A DNA stretch of 64,000 bases, taken from NCBI GenBank assembly GCA_028692545.1, contig JAQUXC010000002.1, positions 28,082-92,081 on the forward strand, written 5' to 3'. A model generated the notes under the pieces. The model was not told the DNA's origin, made no database searches, and worked only from the letters and a program-made list of their open reading frames with translations. This document shows, piece after piece, positions 18,628 through 30,077 of this stretch (positions are counted from its first letter, which is position 1; each line of letters begins with the position of its first letter). The position numbers were made by a program, and so were the translations under genes. The DNA comes from Patescibacteria group bacterium. GTDB taxonomy: Bacteria > Patescibacteriota > Patescibacteriia > UBA1558 > S5-K13.

Positions 18628-18707
18628 ATATTTCAAATATATTTTTTAATTTTAAAAGGATGATGCTCATAGAACACCATCCTTTATATTCTGTTGAGAC
18701 CAGAAAA

Positions 18708-19070
18708 TTAGTATTTCCCGGTCTCAAACATTCTTTGTTCAATTCTATTGGCCCAAAGTTGGGCCTGTTCTTCATTAAGGGGCAATGTCTTCTCAAGCTT
18801 TTTAGACTTGTAATAACTACCCCTTTTTGTCACATGGGACTGACATACTATACTATCCTTGATAAAAATGACGTTGCCAGAGTAAGCTTCCGGCATCGAT
18901 GACTCTTCAAATGTCTGAAGATATGCCGTCTTGCCATCAACAAATACCCACGGGGATTTTGGCTCAGACTTTGACGAACATTGACCAAGAAACATTAGTA
19001 TCAATATAATTATAATGATACCAAGTTGATAGTTCATGGCAGAAATTTTTGTTTGTACTTCATCACTCAT
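18708..19070 (-). CDS. Putative lipoprotein, hypothetical
   Basis: TM/lipobox LILMFLGQCSS. GC is higher than the surrounding genes. It overlaps a probably spurious plus-strand ORF at 18660-18902. Confidence 0.4.
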   Translation of the reverse strand: MSDEVQTKISAMNYQLGIIIIILILMFLGQCSSKSEPKSPWVFVDGKTAYLQTFEESSMPEAYSGNVIFIKDSIVCQSHVTKRGSYYKSKKLEKTLPLNEEQAQLWANRIEQRMFETGKY

Positions 19071-19347
19071 GATTCCTCCATATTTTACCTATTTTCTAGG
19101 ATTTTATATATTCTATCTATATTAACATATATTTATGCAATTGTCAAGTATAACAGCCTCAAATCTCAATTGCCCAAACCCCCCATTTTTGTTATGCTTT
19201 ATTGTATGAAATCAATTACATTATTAAAAATTAGCAGATTTAAACTATCATTTGCGTGGTATGATTTTTGGATTGGCATATATATTGATAGAGATAATAA
19301 AAAGTTATATATTTGTCCTATTCCAACATTACTTATTACTATAAATT

Positions 19348-19955: not shown

Positions 19956-22900
19956 ATGAAAATAGAATTAGACAAAGCATACGAAGCGAAAAAATTTGAA
20001 GACGATATATATCAAGAGTGGCTAAACTCTGGATATTTTAATCCTGACAATTTACAAAAAAGAAATAATAAAAGTTTTTCTATAGTCTTACCTCCTCCAA
20101 ATGTCACTGGACAACTTCATATTGGTCATGCAGCAATGCTTGCATATCAAGATTTAATAGTTAGATATCATAGAATGAGAGGTGATAAAACTCTATGGCT
20201 TCCAGGTATGGATCACGCTGCTATTGCAACACAAACTGTGGTTGATAAAAAATTAAAAGCAAAAGGAATAGATAGGCATGAAATTGGAAGAGAAAAATTT
20301 TTGGAAGAAGTAGATAATTTCGTACAAGAATCAAAAACAGTTATAAAAAATCAACTCCAAAAAATGGGCTCATCTCTAGATTGGTCAAGAGAGAGATATA
20401 CAATGGACAAAGGAATTACCAAAGAAGTTCAACATGTTTTTAGAAAATTGTATGAAGATGGACTTATATATAGAGGCGAAAGAGTTATAAATTGGTGCCC
20501 ACATTGTAAATCCACTTTGGCCGATGATGAAGTTGAGCATCGCGAACAAAATACAAAGTTATATTATTTCAAATATTCTAAAGATTTTCCTATCACAATA
20601 GCAACATCCCGCCCTGAGACAAAACTTGGTGATACTGCAGTTGCAGTAAATCCAAAAGATGAAAGGTACAAAAAATATATCGGAAAAACATTTGATATAA
20701 CTTTTTGTGGCATAAAATTACATATAAAAATTATTGCTGATAGAAATGTAGATATGAATTTTGGAACAGGTGCACTTGGTGTAACGCCAGCTCACTCAGC
20801 AATAGATGCAGATCTTGCAAAAGAACATAATTTAAAAATAATAAAAGTTATAGACAAAGATGGAAAGATTTTACCAGGATTTGGAAAATTCTCTGGACTC
20901 AATACAAAAGAAGCAAGTAAAAAAATCATAGAAGAATTAAAGAAAAATAAGCTCATAGAAAAAATTGATGAATATAATAATAATTTATCAATATGTTATA
21001 GATGTGATACTCCAATAGAGCCAATGCCACTTGAGCAATGGTTTGTAAATGTAAACAAAAAAATAAAAAGTAAAAACAATAAAACTCTCAAACAATTATC
21101 AACAGAGGTTGTAAAAAATGGATCTATAAAAATTATTCCGCAGAGGTTTGATAAAGTATATTTTGAATGGATGAATAATTTGAAAGATTGGTGTATTTCA
21201 AGGCAACTTTGGTTTGGACACAGAATGCCTGTTTGGTACAAAGACAAAGAAATTTGGGTACCAAAAACTATTACAGAATTATATGTGATGAGACATGGGG
21301 CGACAGACTGGAATAAAGAAGGAAAAATCCAAGGAAAAACCGATGTTCCAATTGATGAAGACAATGTAAAAAATATAGAAAAAATTGCAGAAAATTTAAA
21401 GAATGAAAAATTTGATATTATAATTTCTTCAACACAAAAAAGAGCAAGACAAACAGCAGAAATAATAAATCAAAAATTAAATATTACTCTTCTTACAAAT
21501 GAATTACTAGTAGAAAGAGATTATGCGGGATTTGAAGGAAAAGAAGCAAAGAAAGTTGCTAAAGAATATCCAGAATATAAAAATAATAAAATTAAATTTG
21601 ATATTCCTGGAGAAGAAGAGAGCTACGATGATATGAAAAAACGTGTAGAAAAATTTTTAGAATACATTAATAAAAATTATAGCAACAAAAAAATACTTAT
21701 AATAACTCACAATGCTGTTATAAGAACTTTTAATATAATTATCAATGAATTAAATGATGAAGAAGCTTCAAAATATAAATTACAACATGAAAAAATAGAA
21801 AAATATCAAATACTTGATGGAAAATATAAAATAAAAGACTGGAAACAAGACCCTGATACATTGGATACTTGGTTTTCTTCTGCACTTTGGACATTTACAA
21901 CACTTGGTGGACCAAACAAAACAAAAGATTTGAAAGATTTTCACCCCACATCTGTAATGGAAACGGGTTATGATATATTATTTTTCTGGGTTGCAAGAAT
22001 GATACTTCTTACAACATATATATTAGATGATATTCCATTTCACACTGTATATCTTCATGGGCTCGTAAGAGACAAAAATGGCAAAAAAATGTCCAAATCA
22101 CTTGGAAATGGAATAGATCCGCTTGATGTAATAAAAAAATATGGAGCAGATGCCTTAAGACTTTCTATGATAATAGGATCAACGCCAGGAAATGATGTAA
22201 AATTGTATGATGAAAAAATATCTGGTTATAGAAATTTTATAAATAAATTATGGAATATTTCAAGATATATTCTTACAAATATAGAAAATCCTAAACTAAT
22301 AGAAAAAAAACCAGAGGCTATTACACTTTCTGATAAATGGATACTAGATGAACTTGATAAAATAATTTACAATACAACTTTAAAAATAGAAAACTTTCAA
22401 TTCTCCCCTGCTGGAGAAGATTTATATGAATTTACTTGGAACAAATTAGCTGATTGGTATATTGAAATTTCAAAATTAGAAAAATCCGCCGACGCTAAAG
22501 CTATGGCGGACAAGGATGAAATATTATTATATATACTTCAAAATTTGTTAAAATTATGGCATCCATTTACTCCATATATAACAGAAGTAATATGGAAAAA
22601 TTTTAGCAATGAATTACTCTTGATACAAAAATGGCCTGAAGTAAAAATCAAGCTAAGCTCGAAGAAATACAAAGAAAACAAAAAGGTAAAGGATGAATTT
22701 TTTATAATACAAAATATAATAACTGAAATAAGAAAATTCAAAAATATAAATAAAATAGACCCGGCAAAAATTATCAATTGTCATATAGAATCAAAAAAAT
22801 ATGAAAAATTGATAAAAGAAAATTCAAAAATCATAGAAATCCTATCTAGAATAAAATTACAAAATAATTTGTACAAAGAAAAAATCCATATTCCAAATAT

Positions 22901-23093
22901 AGATATATATATTGAAATAATTATAGATAAAAAAGAAACCGAAAAACAGATTATCGAACTAGAAAAATATATAAATACTCTTGAAACAAAATTAGCAAAT
23001 AAACAATTCATAGACAATGCGCCAAATGAAATTGTAGAAGCTGAAAAAAAGAAATTAAGAGATGCAAAAGAATTATTAAATAAATTAAAATAA
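19956..23093 (+). CDS. valS: Valine--tRNA ligase carrying an inserted histidine-phosphatase (PGAM-like) domain
   Basis: PPPNVTGQLHIGHA (HIGH), KMSKS, WCISRQLWFGHRMP and DTLDTWFSS motifs. A roughly 190-aa insert with RHGATDWN and IITHNAVIR lies between the last two. Confidence 0.9.
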   Translation: MKIELDKAYEAKKFEDDIYQEWLNSGYFNPDNLQKRNNKSFSIVLPPPNVTGQLHIGHAAMLAYQDLIVRYHRMRGDKTLWLPGMDHAAIATQTVVDKKLKAKGIDRHEIGREKFLEEVDNFVQESKTVIKNQLQKMGSSLDWSRERYTMDKGITKEVQHVFRKLYEDGLIYRGERVINWCPHCKSTLADDEVEHREQNTKLYYFKYSKDFPITIATSRPETKLGDTAVAVNPKDERYKKYIGKTFDITFCGIKLHIKIIADRNVDMNFGTGALGVTPAHSAIDADLAKEHNLKIIKVIDKDGKILPGFGKFSGLNTKEASKKIIEELKKNKLIEKIDEYNNNLSICYRCDTPIEPMPLEQWFVNVNKKIKSKNNKTLKQLSTEVVKNGSIKIIPQRFDKVYFEWMNNLKDWCISRQLWFGHRMPVWYKDKEIWVPKTITELYVMRHGATDWNKEGKIQGKTDVPIDEDNVKNIEKIAENLKNEKFDIIISSTQKRARQTAEIINQKLNITLLTNELLVERDYAGFEGKEAKKVAKEYPEYKNNKIKFDIPGEEESYDDMKKRVEKFLEYINKNYSNKKILIITHNAVIRTFNIIINELNDEEASKYKLQHEKIEKYQILDGKYKIKDWKQDPDTLDTWFSSALWTFTTLGGPNKTKDLKDFHPTSVMETGYDILFFWVARMILLTTYILDDIPFHTVYLHGLVRDKNGKKMSKSLGNGIDPLDVIKKYGADALRLSMIIGSTPGNDVKLYDEKISGYRNFINKLWNISRYILTNIENPKLIEKKPEAITLSDKWILDELDKIIYNTTLKIENFQFSPAGEDLYEFTWNKLADWYIEISKLEKSADAKAMADKDEILLYILQNLLKLWHPFTPYITEVIWKNFSNELLLIQKWPEVKIKLSSKKYKENKKVKDEFFIIQNIITEIRKFKNINKIDPAKIINCHIESKKYEKLIKENSKIIEILSRIKLQNNLYKEKIHIPNIDIYIEIIIDKKETEKQIIELEKYINTLETKLANKQFIDNAPNEIVEAEKKKLRDAKELLNKLK

Positions 23094-23183: not shown

Positions 23184-23576
23184 ATGAATATAGTTAAAAT
23201 TCTTATTGCCGATTCAAACGTAGTAAACAGAACAAAGTTAATTAGATTACTAAAAAAACTCACAGAAAATGATAATTGTTATCTATTATTTGACGAAGCA
23301 TGTTCTGGAGATGAATGCATCAAATCAATCGCAAAAAAAGGAAATCCAAATCTCCTTATATTAGAAGATTTCTTCTATGAAAAAGAAAATGGTCCAAATA
23401 TTGTTGCAAAACTCCGAATGAAAAGATCCACCAGATATCTTCCGATAATTGCTATTGGAAATGGAGCCAGATTAAAACAAGAATTTGAAGCAGTAGAGGT
23501 AAATGGATTTATAAATTTTTTAACGTTCAAACCAGAATCACTCTGGATAATGGTAAAAGATGCTATACAAAACTAA
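23184..23576 (+). CDS. Stand-alone CheY-like receiver domain protein
   Basis: ILIADSN...LLILED...IIAIG pattern. Strong GGGAGGAAAG RBS before the ATG at 23184. Confidence 0.5.
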   Translation: MNIVKILIADSNVVNRTKLIRLLKKLTENDNCYLLFDEACSGDECIKSIAKKGNPNLLILEDFFYEKENGPNIVAKLRMKRSTRYLPIIAIGNGARLKQEFEAVEVNGFINFLTFKPESLWIMVKDAIQN

Positions 23577-28667: not shown

Positions 28668-28742
28668 GCGAGTATCGTATAGTGGCTATTATACGGCCTT
28701 GCCAAGGCTGAGAGACGGGTCCGATTCCCGTTACTCGCTCCA
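28668..28742 (+). tRNA. tRNA-Gly (anticodon GCC); integration target
   Basis: Acceptor GCGAGTA/TACTCGC, anticodon arm CGGCC-TTGCCAA-GGCTG, T-arm ACGGG-TCCGATT-CCCGT, and CCA. Confidence 0.8.
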
Positions 28743-28773: not shown

Positions 28774-29853
28774 TTATGGCAAACAAATTGTGGCCATATT
28801 GTGGCCAATATTATATTTCTGTTCACTTAAAGACCTTATTGCATCAACTGTCGCAAGTGGTCCAAGATGAGAATATCTCATTGTAGTTTTAACATCAGAA
28901 TGCCCCAATAACTCTTTTACAACAAGTATTGAAATTCCTCTTTGAACTAAATGAGAAGCAAATGTATGTCTTAAATTATGCCATCCTATTTTTCTTAAAC
29001 CACTTAACTGACAGGCACTATGAAGTTTGTTTAGTGCCAAATTTGAAGTATAAGATTTTCCATTAACATTTGGGAATACTAAACCTGTTTTTATAGATCT
29101 GGCTTCAAGCATATCAAGAAGTTGTGGTGCAAGAGGGATATATCTAATCTTATTACTTTTTGTGCTCCCAATTAATCCTCTGGTAATAGAACGACGAATA
29201 ATAATTTTCTTATTCTTAAGGTCAACATCACTCCAATCAAGGACTGCCAATTCCCCAAATCTTAAACCAGTCATATAAACCATCAGAATCATTTCTCCTA
29301 TTATTTCATTTGCGCCAATTAGAAGTGAAGATAACTCTTCATTACTTAGAAAATCAAATTTCTGTGGTGGAACATTTAATAACCTCATTTTTGGAACTTG
29401 ATTTACACACTCCCATTCTTGAGCCGTCTTAAGACATTTACTTAGAATTGTTAAAATATTGTTGATTGTCTTTGGACTTAATCCTTCCTCAAGTTTCTTT
29501 GCTTTGAACTCCTCTATCTTCAGCACACTTATCTTGTTTAGTGGGAGTTTACCAAAAAAAGGAATTAAATGTTTATCAAGAATATACTTTTTTCCTACTT
29601 GCTCAGATGGTTTATTATTATTCATTACATAGGTTTTATGCCATTTATATGAAAACTCTTCAAATAATGGAATCTTAATCTCTTTTACTTTTTCAACTAT
29701 CTCTTCACCACGAGCTAATTTCTGTCTAATCAAAGACTCGTAAACTTTGGCCCCAGCAAAGCTATTTTCAGGACTAGGCATTCTATATCTTATTCTATTG
29801 AATCTAAAACCTATCCAATATTTTTTTCCTCTCTTAAAAATACTCATATTCAT
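28774..29853 (-). CDS. int: Tyrosine site-specific integrase (phage integrase family)
   Basis: C-terminal catalytic box WHNLRHTFAS...LLGHSDVKTTMRYSHL (R, HxxR, Y). It sits adjacent to the tRNA. Confidence 0.9.
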   Translation of the reverse strand: MNMSIFKRGKKYWIGFRFNRIRYRMPSPENSFAGAKVYESLIRQKLARGEEIVEKVKEIKIPLFEEFSYKWHKTYVMNNNKPSEQVGKKYILDKHLIPFFGKLPLNKISVLKIEEFKAKKLEEGLSPKTINNILTILSKCLKTAQEWECVNQVPKMRLLNVPPQKFDFLSNEELSSLLIGANEIIGEMILMVYMTGLRFGELAVLDWSDVDLKNKKIIIRRSITRGLIGSTKSNKIRYIPLAPQLLDMLEARSIKTGLVFPNVNGKSYTSNLALNKLHSACQLSGLRKIGWHNLRHTFASHLVQRGISILVVKELLGHSDVKTTMRYSHLGPLATVDAIRSLSEQKYNIGHNMATICLP

Positions 29854-30077
29854 TTTGAGATTACGTTGACTTGGACATTGTCTAAATAAGCCAGAACATC
29901 TTCTTTCTTAAATCTTAAGCTACCACCAATTTTGTAAAACTTGATTACTCTTTGATCTACCAACCTATAAACAGTTGGAGTAGAAATACTAAAAAATTTA
30001 GCAAGATCAATTGGTGTTAAGAATGGTTTATTTATAATTTTGTCCAAATCTTCAATCATTTTATTGTTAAGGAACAA
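29850..30077 (-). CDS. xis: Excisionase/MerR-type HTH DNA-binding protein
   Basis: 75 aa; the ISTPTVYRLV helix-turn-helix overlaps the integrase start. Confidence 0.65.
   Translation of the reverse strand: MFLNNKMIEDLDKIINKPFLTPIDLAKFFSISTPTVYRLVDQRVIKFYKIGGSLRFKKEDVLAYLDNVQVNVISK

What the first reader, a model, noticed from the sequence alone, without database searches (positions are those of the whole stretch)
21270..21850. Valyl-tRNA synthetase with an inserted complete histidine-phosphatase (PGAM-like) domain
Seen in sequence: within one uninterrupted valS frame, about 190 extra residues sit between the conserved WCISRQLWFGHRMPVWY and DTLDTWFSSALW blocks. The insert begins with the hallmark RHGxTxWN motif (VMRHGATDWNKEGKIQGKTD) and contains the second catalytic His context LIITHNAVIR. 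Established knowledge: RHG...H is the catalytic signature of the phosphoglycerate-mutase/histidine-phosphatase superfamily. ValRS normally has only about 40-50 residues at this position. Such a fusion is not a textbook ValRS architecture. It could couple aminoacylation to a phosphatase activity, or it could be a degenerate inserted domain.
Basis: partly seen in the sequence, partly recalled or inferred. Interest (0 to 1): 0.7.

Follow-up and report, generated by a model that had tools for sequence, protein, structure and literature searches.

The report
Valyl-tRNA synthetase with embedded phosphatase
An essential protein-synthesis enzyme (valyl-tRNA synthetase) of an ultra-small Patescibacteria bacterium carries a complete, apparently active histidine phosphatase inside its catalytic core, one example of a widespread, repeatedly gained and swapped insertion that no paper I could find describes.

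Summary
Window 19956-23093 (+) is one uninterrupted 1045-aa valS gene. Residues 442-630 (nt 21279-21845) are a full-length His_Phos_1 domain (E=4e-43), nested between WCISRQ and DTLDTWFSS in the variable CP3 subdomain. All five catalytic residues are present (R446, H447, R496, E520, H585). The insert is under purifying selection (dN/dS 0.21).

It is not an artefact: the identical protein occurs in three assemblies. It is also not unique. 58 of the 120 best ValRS hits (Patescibacteria) carry such a domain. All 120 best hits to a Peregrinibacteria IleRS fusion carry it, 113 of them with two copies.

The domain sits at three or more micro-sites in the same loop and at other sites around KMSKS, with up to four or more copies per protein. 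Insert and host histories are uncoupled. Orthologous genes about 88% identical in DNA carry unrelated cassettes with sharp breakpoints.

Standalone relatives lie next to lysS, leuS, pheT and trpS more often than I estimate by chance. The phosphatase substrate is unknown. The closest characterised relatives are PhoE/PspA-type small-molecule phosphatases. I found no publication, although automated annotations already record the architecture.

The parts
19956..23093 (+). valS gene: one uninterrupted ORF of 1045 aa plus stop codon
   Evidence: NF004349 valS equivalog, 970 bits against cut-off 704; identical protein in three assemblies; housekeeping synteny tsaD-tsaE-valS-rpmF-nusB-rnc-smc.
19956..21239 (+). 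ValRS N-terminal part (aa 1-428): first half of the Rossmann fold, CP1 editing domain and CP2, ending at strand PVWY
   Evidence: aligns to 1gax residues 2-418; tRNA-synt_1 18-461; model against 1gax_A, TM 0.84.
20118..20129 (+). HIGH signature motif (aa 55-58)
   Evidence: H55, G57 and H58 are invariant or nearly invariant in alignment A2.
21189..21206 (+). WCISRQ motif (aa 412-417), the CP2-CP3 linker that lines the tRNA 3'-CCA / reveromycin pocket in IleRS
   Evidence: for coordinates. PMC7955072 for the role of the homologous ScIleRS segment 453-ARDWNVSRNRYWG-465.
21240..21278 (+). N-side remnant of the CP3 hairpin and short linker (aa 429-441, KDKEIWVPKTITE)
   Evidence: homologous to KxxEIxV of insert-less relatives; strands 427-429 and 432-434 precede phosphatase strand 439-446.
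21279..21845 (+). Inserted histidine phosphatase domain (His_Phos_1, aa 442-630)
   Evidence: E=4.3e-43, profile 1-192/194; closest solved: PspA 4ij5, PhoE 1ebb/1h2e; pLDDT 90-97; dN/dS 0.21.
21291..21296 (+). R446-H447 of the RHG motif (H447 is the predicted phospho-accepting nucleophile)
   Evidence: The His is invariant in every aligned copy.
21441..21443 (+). R496, second phosphate-binding arginine (SSTQKRARQTA)
   Evidence: 100% conserved in embedded and standalone copies.
21513..21515 (+). E520, predicted general acid/base (LVERDYAGFEG)
   Evidence: 98-99% conserved.
21708..21710 (+). H585, second catalytic histidine (LIITHNAV)
   Evidence: 99% conserved.
21855..21881 (+). DTLDTWFSS motif (aa 634-642), where the ValRS catalytic core resumes
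   Evidence: 1gax alignment resumes at query 630. D634, L636, D637, T638, W639, F640 and S641 are invariant in A2.
22086..22100 (+). KMSKS signature loop (aa 711-715)
   Evidence: K711, S713, K714 and S715 are invariant in A2.
21846..23090 (+). ValRS C-terminal part (aa 631-1045): second half of the Rossmann fold, anticodon-binding domain and C-terminal coiled-coil tRNA-binding arm
   Evidence: Anticodon_1 793-937; Val_tRNA-synt_C 995-1045; aligns to 1gax 447-850.

Best explanation
This is the organism's housekeeping valyl-tRNA synthetase, converted into a two-enzyme polypeptide. A complete PhoE/PspA/CobC-like histidine phosphatase (aa 442-630) is inserted, through very short linkers, into the hairpin of the CP3 subdomain. 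CP3 is the variable loop that leaves the Rossmann fold just after the WCISRQ segment lining the tRNA-acceptor pocket, and returns at DTLDTWFSS.

Shown:
- The synthetase parts are intact (HIGH, KMSKS, editing domain, anticodon domain, coiled coil).
- The phosphatase has the full catalytic set (R446, H447, R496, E520, H585) and is under purifying selection.
- The same kind of domain occurs in about half of related Patescibacteria ValRS and in apparently all Peregrinibacteria IleRS sampled.
- It was inserted independently at several micro-sites and sites around the KMSKS-bearing half of the core.
- It is lost, regained and exchanged as a cassette by recombination between the conserved flanking motifs.

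Inferred: the ValRS moiety charges tRNA-Val normally, and the insert hydrolyses a phosphomonoester through a phospho-H447 intermediate. Repeated independent fusion to two synthetases, plus operon-like adjacency of standalone relatives to lysS, leuS, pheT and trpS, suggests that the phosphatase's job is tied to aminoacyl-tRNA synthetase function and is not random. The substrate is not determined. My leading candidate is a phosphorylated component of the charging reaction: an inhibitory phospho-serine on the synthetase's ATP-binding loop, or a blocking phosphate on the tRNA 3' end. The second candidate is a small-molecule phosphoester.
For: Architecture and integrity: pLDDT 91.2, pTM 0.82; TM 0.84 to 1gax_A.

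Not an artefact: three assemblies; syntenic insert-less orthologue.

Catalytic competence: pentad RHREH in 76/96 embedded copies and in 117/120 plus 118/119 IleRS copies; same conserved active-site set as standalone enzymes; omega 0.21 for the insert against 0.09-0.11 for the backbone, dS about 0.5.

Recurrence:
- 58/120 ValRS hits.
- every long protein found with the insert as query is ValRS or IleRS.
- 120/120 IleRS hits, 113 with two copies.
- three micro-sites plus sites A', B and pre-WCISRQ, with up to four or more copies.
- Sungiibacteriota, Peribacteria and Saccharibacteria genomes.

Cassette dynamics:
- insert-bearing and insert-less genes interleaved on the host tree.
- Spearman 0.05 between host and insert identity; 86% against 27% for P0139/P0156.
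- the window's backbone matches the P0123-P0127 clade, but its insert matches P0140.
- syntenic loci with 85-94% nucleotide identity, dropping to 33-57% exactly between PVWY and QDxDTLDTW.

Link to synthetases beyond fusion: (lysS overlapping by 1 nt or separated by 3 nt, leuS, pheT at 3 nt, trpS twice, one Glu/Gln-type).

Position next to the acceptor pocket: (PMC7191050, PMC7955072).

Precedent for inhibitory serine phosphorylation of synthetase ATP-binding motifs: (PMC7029023).
Against: - No activity was measured. The substrate and any coupling are inference.
- The closest characterised relatives are small-molecule phosphatases, and every specific NCBIfam model is below its cut-off.
- Embedded copies conserve the same residues as standalone ones and are not more basic than their hosts. 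Nothing in the sequence points to a protein or RNA substrate.
- The neighbourhood enrichment is modest: 7 of 83 standalone loci, in 5 independent arrangements, against my own rough expectation of 1.5-3.5. Only 2 of the 6 closest relatives are adjacent to a synthetase.
- Close relatives do without the insert, so it is dispensable for ValRS function.
- From fold topology (my inference, not measured), the phosphatase active site lies at the end of strand 1 opposite the attachment point, so it may face away from the synthetase.
- The trees are simple neighbour-joining trees on p-distances.
Confidence: 0.6

Rival explanations
1. Uncoupled passenger. A generic small-molecule phosphatase (PhoE/PspA/CobC-like housekeeping or salvage enzyme) has been parked in a structurally permissive surface loop of a large, constitutively expressed protein. 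It works independently of aminoacylation, and the fusion only secures expression in a minimal genome.
For: - The closest solved and curated relatives are small-molecule phosphatases.
- The conserved residues are identical to those of standalone enzymes and there is no basic shift.
- CP3 is known to vary in topology between IleRSs (PMC7191050). The same site also hosts other unrelated inserts (P0226, P0229) and site A' hosts an ASCH domain.
- Close relatives function without the insert.
- valS alleles recombine generally, not only at the insert.
Against: - Every long host found with the insert as query was ValRS or IleRS, and no other large protein appeared.
- There were at least five or six independent insertion events, at several sites, in two synthetases.
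- Up to four or more catalytically intact copies occur in one protein, which is hard to explain by expression needs alone.
- The insertion is fixed, with both pentads intact, across the Peregrinibacteria IleRS sampled.
- Standalone relatives sit in operon-like positions after lysS, pheT and leuS and before trpS.
Confidence: 0.3
2. Non-catalytic module. The domain serves as a structural, oligomerisation or ligand-sensing element (a pseudo-phosphatase) that modulates ValRS, for example by dimerising as dPGM-family proteins do.
For: Eight of 55 ValRS inserts lack the first arginine of RHG (the 'xVHGTTxDNE' type). The insert evolves about twice as fast as the backbone. Multi-copy arrangements could build intramolecular dimers.
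Against: The nucleophile His, second Arg, Glu and second His are essentially invariant across very divergent copies, at 20-40% identity. That pattern is expected for catalysis, not for a scaffold.
Confidence: 0.06
3. Selfish or mobile insertion. The cassette spreads like an intein or homing element that targets a conserved site of an essential gene, which would explain the sporadic distribution and the incongruent phylogeny.
For: Location between two of the most conserved motifs of an essential gene, presence and absence among close relatives, and a cassette history uncoupled from the host.
Against: - There are no intein, Hint or homing-endonuclease hits.
- The junction residues (…VPKTITELYVM… and …KDWKQDPD…) lack the splicing Cys/Ser and His-Asn.
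- The active site is conserved and omega is 0.21.
- The insertion is fixed across the Peregrinibacteria IleRS sampled.
- Mosaicism also affects other valS regions, which fits ordinary homologous recombination.
Confidence: 0.03
4. Assembly or annotation artefact that joins a valS gene with a separate phosphatase gene.
For: None found. It was considered only because the source is a metagenome-assembled genome.
Against: The frame is continuous with ValRS sequence on both sides. The identical protein occurs in three assemblies. There are dozens of diverged homologues with the same architecture. The full-length model is confident.
Confidence: 0.01

Closest known systems
Canonical bacterial valyl-tRNA synthetase (T. 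thermophilus ValRS, PDB 1GAX/1IVS; NCBIfam NF004349, TIGR00422)
   Same: It has HIGH, KMSKS, the CP1 editing domain, the anticodon-binding domain and the C-terminal coiled coil. The equivalog score is above the cut-off, and the model superposes on 1gax_A with TM 0.84.
   Different: About 199 residues, including a whole enzyme domain, replace the loop of about 29 residues (a zinc knuckle in Thermus) between PVWY and DTWFSS. NCBI's pipeline therefore names the protein only 'class I tRNA ligase family protein'.
Short histidine phosphatases of superfamily branch 1: PhoE (G. stearothermophilus, 1EBB/1H2E), PspA phosphoserine phosphatase (4IJ5), CobC alpha-ribazole phosphatase (6NRU)
   Same: Full-length His_Phos_1 match, the same catalytic residues, a similar size of about 180-200 aa, and 30-40% identity to standalone PhoE-named proteins.
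   Different: It is embedded inside another enzyme instead of free-standing. It scores below the curated cut-off of every specific family (CobC 110-115 against 163; PspA 86-89 against 350; SixA 32 against 74.5; dPGM models 34-66 against 82-421). The substrate is unknown.
Peregrinibacteria/Peribacteria IleRS with two His_Phos domains (for example the Candidatus Peribacter riflensis isoleucyl-tRNA synthetase; JGI auto-name 'isoleucyl-tRNA synthetase/bisphosphoglycerate-dependent phosphoglycerate mutase')
   Same: The same phosphatase subfamily is inserted in the homologous CP3 loop of the sister class Ia synthetase, with the catalytic pentad intact.
   Different: The host is IleRS, not ValRS. 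There are usually two copies, and the insertion is present in all 120 hits, whereas in ValRS it is sporadic and swapped. This exists only as database records; the Peribacteria genome paper does not mention it.
IleRS with an embedded N-acetyltransferase domain (NCBIfam NF040702, ileS_w_GNAT)
   Same: A class Ia synthetase that carries an additional catalytic domain and is recognised as an 'exception' family (seen).
   Different: The added enzyme is different (GNAT against histidine phosphatase). Its insertion site and distribution were not examined here. The window protein scores 168 against a cut-off of 1999, so it is not a member.
Bifunctional RNase H / CobC-type acid phosphatase (Rv2228c type, NCBIfam NF005567)
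   Same: A CobC-like histidine phosphatase fused to a nucleic-acid enzyme. The insert matches its phosphatase half (E=6e-23).
   Different: That is an end-to-end fusion, not an internal insertion, and the partner enzyme is different. The score of 82-85 is far below the cut-off of 326.

Membership tests
Valine--tRNA ligase (class Ia; NCBIfam NF004349 / TIGR00422) | Whole-protein score above the curated equivalog cut-off | tested here: met
   NF004349 scores 970.1 against 704, and TIGR00422 scores 908.8 against 612.1, each matched in two stretches that flank the insert.
Valine--tRNA ligase (class Ia; NCBIfam NF004349 / TIGR00422) | HIGH and KMSKS signature motifs | tested here: met
   HIGH at aa 55-58 and KMSKS at aa 711-715. 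Both are invariant in the 65-sequence alignment.
Valine--tRNA ligase (class Ia; NCBIfam NF004349 / TIGR00422) | CP1 editing domain, anticodon-binding domain and C-terminal coiled-coil arm in ValRS order | tested here: met
   Alignment to 1gax over 4-430 and 630-1040. Pfam Anticodon_1 and Val_tRNA-synt_C. Foldseek TM 0.84 to 1gax_A.
Valine--tRNA ligase (class Ia; NCBIfam NF004349 / TIGR00422) | Valine-specific aminoacylation of tRNA-Val | not testable with these tools
   This needs an enzyme assay. Housekeeping synteny identical to an insert-less orthologue supports it indirectly.
Histidine phosphatase superfamily, branch 1 (Pfam PF00300) | Full-length profile match above the gathering score | tested here: met
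   147.7 bits against 21.7, covering profile positions 1-192 of 194.
Histidine phosphatase superfamily, branch 1 (Pfam PF00300) | Catalytic core: RHG nucleophile His, two Arg, a Glu acid/base and a second His | tested here: met
   R446, H447, R496, E520 and H585, aligned to the invariant columns of 248 copies.
Histidine phosphatase superfamily, branch 1 (Pfam PF00300) | Alpha/beta fold of the superfamily | tested here: inconclusive
   The model has pLDDT 90-97 over the insert, with alternating strands and helices that start with strand 439-446 ending at RHG. The insert was not fold-searched on its own.
Histidine phosphatase superfamily, branch 1 (Pfam PF00300) | Phosphomonoesterase or mutase activity through a phosphohistidine intermediate | not testable with these tools
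   This needs biochemistry. Purifying selection (omega 0.21) supports function.
Cofactor-dependent phosphoglycerate mutase (gpmA; TIGR01258 and NF0107xx equivalogs) | Score above the curated cut-off | tested here: not met
   TIGR01258 scores 57.7 against 81.7. NF010713 scores 55.7 against 305. The other models score 27-57 against 316-421, and the matches cover only the N-terminal ~100-120 residues.
Alpha-ribazole phosphatase CobC (TIGR03162) | Score above the curated cut-off | tested here: not met
   109.6-114.5 against 162.9. It is the best-scoring specific model but is below the threshold.
Phosphoserine phosphatase PspA (NF045917) / phosphohistidine phosphatase SixA (TIGR00249) | Score above the curated cut-off | tested here: not met
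   PspA scores 85.7-89.4 against 350. SixA scores 32.3 against 74.5.
Intein / homing element | Hint splicing blocks (N-terminal Cys/Ser, C-terminal His-Asn followed by Cys/Ser/Thr) and usually an endonuclease domain | tested here: not met
   Pfam gives no Hint, intein or LAGLIDADG hits. The junction sequences lack the splicing residues.

The most novel reading that the evidence does not exclude
The embedded phosphatases are built-in repair or immunity modules for the charging machinery. Tethered beside the synthetic site, they would remove an inhibitory phosphate. One target could be the serine of the KMSKS/ATP-binding loop, which HipA-family kinase toxins phosphorylate in GltX, TrpS and LysS. 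The other could be the tRNA 3' end (3'-phosphate or pyrophosphate). The gain, loss and swapping of cassettes, and the copy-number expansion, would then reflect an arms race. The operonic standalone copies after lysS, leuS and pheT and next to trpS would be the unfused version of the same system.
Probability: 0.2. Interest if true: 0.85.

Novelty: new variant of a known kind. Interest (0 to 1): 0.62.

Why it matters
Aminoacyl-tRNA synthetases are among the most conserved enzymes known. In bacteria, extra catalytic domains inside their core are, as far as I know, rare and mostly concern editing. Here a second, apparently active enzyme has been inserted repeatedly and independently next to the active site of two synthetases across large branches of the Candidate Phyla Radiation. 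It reaches up to four or more copies per protein and shows cassette-like exchange. If the phosphatase acts on the synthetase, on its tRNA or on a reaction product, this would be a new layer of control or repair of tRNA charging. It would also give a handle on the unknown physiological role of the very common PhoE-like phosphatases. Even if the domain is uncoupled, the case documents enzyme-in-enzyme insertion and recombinational domain swapping in an essential gene. It also has a practical consequence: annotation pipelines downgrade these proteins to 'class I tRNA ligase family protein', which may make ValRS or IleRS look absent in genome reconstructions of these bacteria.

Tried and rejected
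- **Junction-spanning homology search.** It returned only proteins of 506 aa or shorter, all on short contigs. It showed that other fusions exist but missed the full-length ones, so I repeated it with the full protein.
- **Exhaustive search with the insert alone.** It did not return the window's own cluster. It was useful only for standalone relatives and for discovering the IleRS fusions.
- **Glycolytic phosphoglycerate mutase.** Rejected, because all dPGM models are far below their cut-offs.
- **Intein or homing element.** Rejected, because there are no splicing motifs and no endonuclease.
- **Tandem duplication as the origin of multi-copy proteins.** Rejected for P0153 and P0157, whose two site-A copies belong to different insert types.
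- **Single specialised synthetase-adapted clade of phosphatases.** Not supported. Embedded copies fall into many clusters and are as close to standalone proteins as to each other. The standalone sample was biased towards the window's type, which works against this conclusion.
- **Basic-charge test for an RNA-facing surface.** No signal.
- **Rfam scan for a leader or riboswitch or other RNA near valS.** Only two tRNA-Gly genes reached threshold.
- **Genome-collection scan.** It served only as a rough neighbourhood sample.
- **Other domains at the same ValRS site (P0226, P0229).** No Pfam match.
- **Geometry of the two active sites.** I could not compute it, because model coordinates are not exposed to scripts.
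- **Literature searches.** I found no description of the architecture. One search was badly specified and uninformative.
Full report
**1. Observation**

Window 19956-23093 (+) is one open reading frame of 1045 codons. Pfam finds the class I synthetase catalytic family in two pieces, the anticodon-binding domain and the ValRS C-terminal arm. Between the two catalytic pieces it finds a full-length His_Phos_1 domain at aa 442-630 (E=4.3e-43, profile 1-192/194). The finder's own interval, scanned alone, gives E=1.6e-44.

NCBIfam's valS equivalogs are passed (970 bits against 704), again as two stretches. T. thermophilus ValRS aligns to residues 4-430 and 630-1040, so about 199 residues replace a loop of about 29 residues.

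The same 1045-aa protein is encoded in an NCBI MAG (GCA_028708725.1) and in two independent Logan assemblies. It lies in the housekeeping context tsaD-tsaE-valS-rpmF-nusB-rnc-smc.

**2. Anatomy**

The insertion lies in the CP3 subdomain. This is the segment between CP2 and the second half of the Rossmann fold. It carries a zinc motif in T. thermophilus IleRS and differs in topology among IleRSs (PMC7191050). CP3 begins right after the WCISRQ-type 'CP2-3 linker'. In yeast IleRS that linker forms part of the pocket for reveromycin A, which the paper describes as occupying the tRNA binding site (PMC7955072).

Insert-less Patescibacteria ValRS have a short hairpin here (PVWYKxxEIxVGxxxPxGxGWxQDxDTLDTW). 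In the window protein the phosphatase sits between the two hairpin strands, with linkers of only about 4 and 10 residues.

An AlphaFold model built on 65 homologues is confident throughout (mean pLDDT 91.2, pTM 0.82, insert 90-97). Its synthetase body superposes on 1gax_A with TM 0.84. I could not access the coordinates, so the relative orientation of the two active sites is untested.

**3. Is the insert a working enzyme?**

All five catalytic positions are present. Across 55 ValRS inserts that share as little as 18-30% identity, the nucleophile His, the second Arg, the Glu and the second His are invariant. The first Arg is replaced in eight inserts of one sub-type.

Over all 248 copies collected, RHREH is intact in 76 of 96 synthetase-embedded copies. 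Most exceptions are truncated at contig ends or lack only the first Arg. Embedded and standalone copies conserve the same residue set.

Against the closest relative (89% identical protein, L091), dN/dS is 0.21 for the insert and 0.09-0.11 for the backbone, at dS of about 0.5. The 'degenerate domain' option is therefore not supported.

The domain is not a phosphoglycerate mutase, CobC, PspA or SixA by NCBI's curated thresholds. Its closest solved relatives are the small-molecule phosphatases PspA (4ij5) and PhoE (1ebb/1h2e). Sources name the closest standalone proteins 'broad specificity phosphatase PhoE'.

**4. Distribution**

Of the 120 best ValRS hits, 58 carry the domain. Where named, they come from Komeilibacteria, Moranbacteria, Falkowbacteria, Parcubacteria or 'Patescibacteria group'.

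An exhaustive search of 1.84 billion representatives with the insert alone found mostly standalone proteins of 175-210 aa at 35-43% identity, plus 11 proteins of 780 aa or more. Nine of these were scanned, and all nine are class I synthetases: four ValRS and five IleRS. The tenth (P0286) was not family-scanned but carries synthetase motifs.

A search with a full-length IleRS fusion returned 120 of 120 hits with the domain (1256-1654 aa; one further hit of 1007 aa is a fragment of the query's own cluster), named Peregrinibacteria or Peribacteria and including Candidatus Peribacter riflensis. Of these, 113 have two copies, and both pentads are intact in about 98%.

Species-representative genomes of Sungiibacteriota, Peribacteria and Saccharibacteria also encode embedded copies.

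**5. Repeated, independent insertion**

Within the ValRS CP3 loop there are three micro-sites:
- between the hairpin strands (the window type);
- before an intact hairpin;
- between retained CxxC...CxxCG zinc-knuckle halves.

Further copies occur after DTWFSS...STLGWP (site A'), after KMSKS in IleRS (site B), and before WCISRQ. Single proteins carry two, three or at least four copies. In P0153 and P0157 the two site-A copies are of different types, so they arose by successive insertion and not by duplication. The embedded domains are not one clade. The window's insert is as similar to standalone proteins (39-41%) as to other embedded types.

**6. Cassette dynamics**

On a tree of the synthetase backbone, insert-bearing and insert-less genes are interleaved even among close relatives. 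A syntenic orthologue (L004) lacks the insert and has no standalone copy nearby.

Host and insert identities are uncorrelated over 1431 pairs (Spearman 0.05). Examples are P0139/P0156 at 86% against 27%, and P0134/P0136 at 95% against 54%.

The window protein is itself a mosaic. Its backbone is 67-79% identical to the P0123-P0127 clade, but its insert is only 41-47% identical to theirs. Against P0140 the insert is 69% identical and the backbone only 54-59%.

The clearest case is L006 against L007. The loci are perfectly syntenic. Nucleotide identity is mostly 85-94% in the valS sequence flanking the cassette and drops to 33-57% over about 630 nt, exactly between the PVWY and QDxDTLDTW codons. 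Other valS segments also switch affinity. Ordinary homologous recombination anchored in the conserved flanks is therefore the simplest mechanism. There are no intein or endonuclease features.

**7. Function**

Shown: an intact ValRS and an intact, selected phosphatase in one chain. The rest is inferred.

Two arguments support a functional link with synthetases.
- *Host specificity and recurrence.* See sections 4 and 5.
- *Gene neighbourhood of standalone relatives.* A 167-member cluster starts at the stop codon of lysS (L008/L009), and another relative lies 465 nt after leuS (L010). In 80 loci from species-representative genomes, 3 copies are embedded in synthetases and at least 5 are immediate neighbours of one: lysS at 3 nt, pheT at 3 nt, trpS twice, and one Glu/Gln-type. 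My rough expectation is about 2-4% per locus, and some arrangements are related to each other. The enrichment is suggestive, not conclusive. Four of the six closest relatives examined have no such neighbour.

HipA-family kinases inactivate GltX and TrpS by phosphorylating a serine in the ATP-binding motif, and they also phosphorylate LysS (PMC7029023). This gives a concrete, testable candidate role for a synthetase-tethered phosphatase. A blocking phosphate on the tRNA 3' end is another candidate.

Against such readings:
- the nearest characterised relatives act on small molecules;
- no sequence feature distinguishes embedded from free copies;
- the insert is dispensable in close relatives.

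**8. Novelty**

The sequences are public, and their domain content is recorded by automated pipelines. JGI even names some 'isoleucyl-tRNA synthetase/bisphosphoglycerate-dependent phosphoglycerate mutase'. Six literature searches and the Peribacteria genome paper gave no description or analysis of this architecture. The library does not cover subscription journals, so the absence is not proof.

I class this as a new variant of a known kind (a synthetase with an accessory catalytic domain). The recurrence, the cassette exchange and the possible general phosphatase-synthetase link are the interesting parts.

Noticed in passing
window 28668-28742 (+) and about 28774-30059 (-): A tRNA-Gly(GCC) gene is followed immediately by a phage-type integrase (Phage_int_SAM_3/Phage_integrase) and an HTH_17 gene, then several small ORFs without family matches. 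This looks like an integrative element inserted at the tRNA gene (coordinates converted from L001).
   Followed up: no
window 23184-23576 (+): A 130-aa ORF lies between valS and rpmF. It is absent from the syntenic insert-less relative L004, and a 130-aa ORF also occurs downstream of valS in the closest relative L091 (homology not checked). By eye it resembles a CheY-like receiver domain (ILIADSN...LLILED...), but it has no Pfam or NCBIfam match.
   Followed up: partly
window 18650-19100 (both strands): A GC-rich bump (0.36-0.39 against about 0.28 background) lies between tsaD and tsaE, with overlapping ORFs on both strands. The called minus-strand ORF 18708-19070 has no family match, and no Rfam family reaches threshold.
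   Followed up: partly
window 20586-20945 and 22833-23015 (valS aa 211-330 and 960-1020): valS is mosaic beyond the insert. The editing-domain segment drops to 38-50% identity against P0124 and P0125 while staying at 67-88% against P0123, P0126 and P0127. The C-terminal coiled coil is closer to the P0134 group (64-68%) than to the backbone's own clade (40-49%).
   Followed up: partly
P0160 aa 647-732 (ValRS relative; site A' between DTWFSS and KMSKS): An ASCH domain (from memory, a PUA-like module proposed to bind RNA) is inserted a short distance downstream of the phosphatase in the same protein. P0226 and P0229 carry 114-155-aa inserts at the CP3 site with no Pfam match. This region of ValRS is a general insertion hot spot in these bacteria.
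   Followed up: partly
L006 4164-5001 and L007 3142-4001: An unannotated stretch of about 840 nt lies between tsaE and valS and is conserved between the two genomes (53-90% identity). In the window the corresponding gap is only 177 nt.
   Followed up: no
L008/L009 2949-7737; L016: A conserved arrangement dus - RDD - lysS - His_Phos - ackA occurs in L008/L009. L016, from an uncultured Bacilli MAG, shows lysS followed by the phosphatase and then a 399-aa ORF in the acetate-kinase position. The phosphatase start overlaps the lysS stop by 1 nt, or lies 3 nt after it. Its cluster has 167 members seen on hundreds of contigs.
   Followed up: partly
P0245, P0248, P0249, P0258, P0278, P0296, P0306, P0312, P0355, P0388: These proteins of about 370-450 aa consist of two tandem His_Phos domains and have no synthetase motifs. 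They may be free-standing double phosphatases or fragments of IleRS-type fusions from short contigs.
   Followed up: no
database records of P0121, P0139, P0253, P0397 and others: NCBI's pipeline names the insert-bearing ValRS and IleRS only 'class I tRNA ligase family protein' or 'hypothetical protein', while insert-less relatives are named 'valine--tRNA ligase'. This may make these synthetases appear absent in automated reconstructions of CPR genomes.
   Followed up: no
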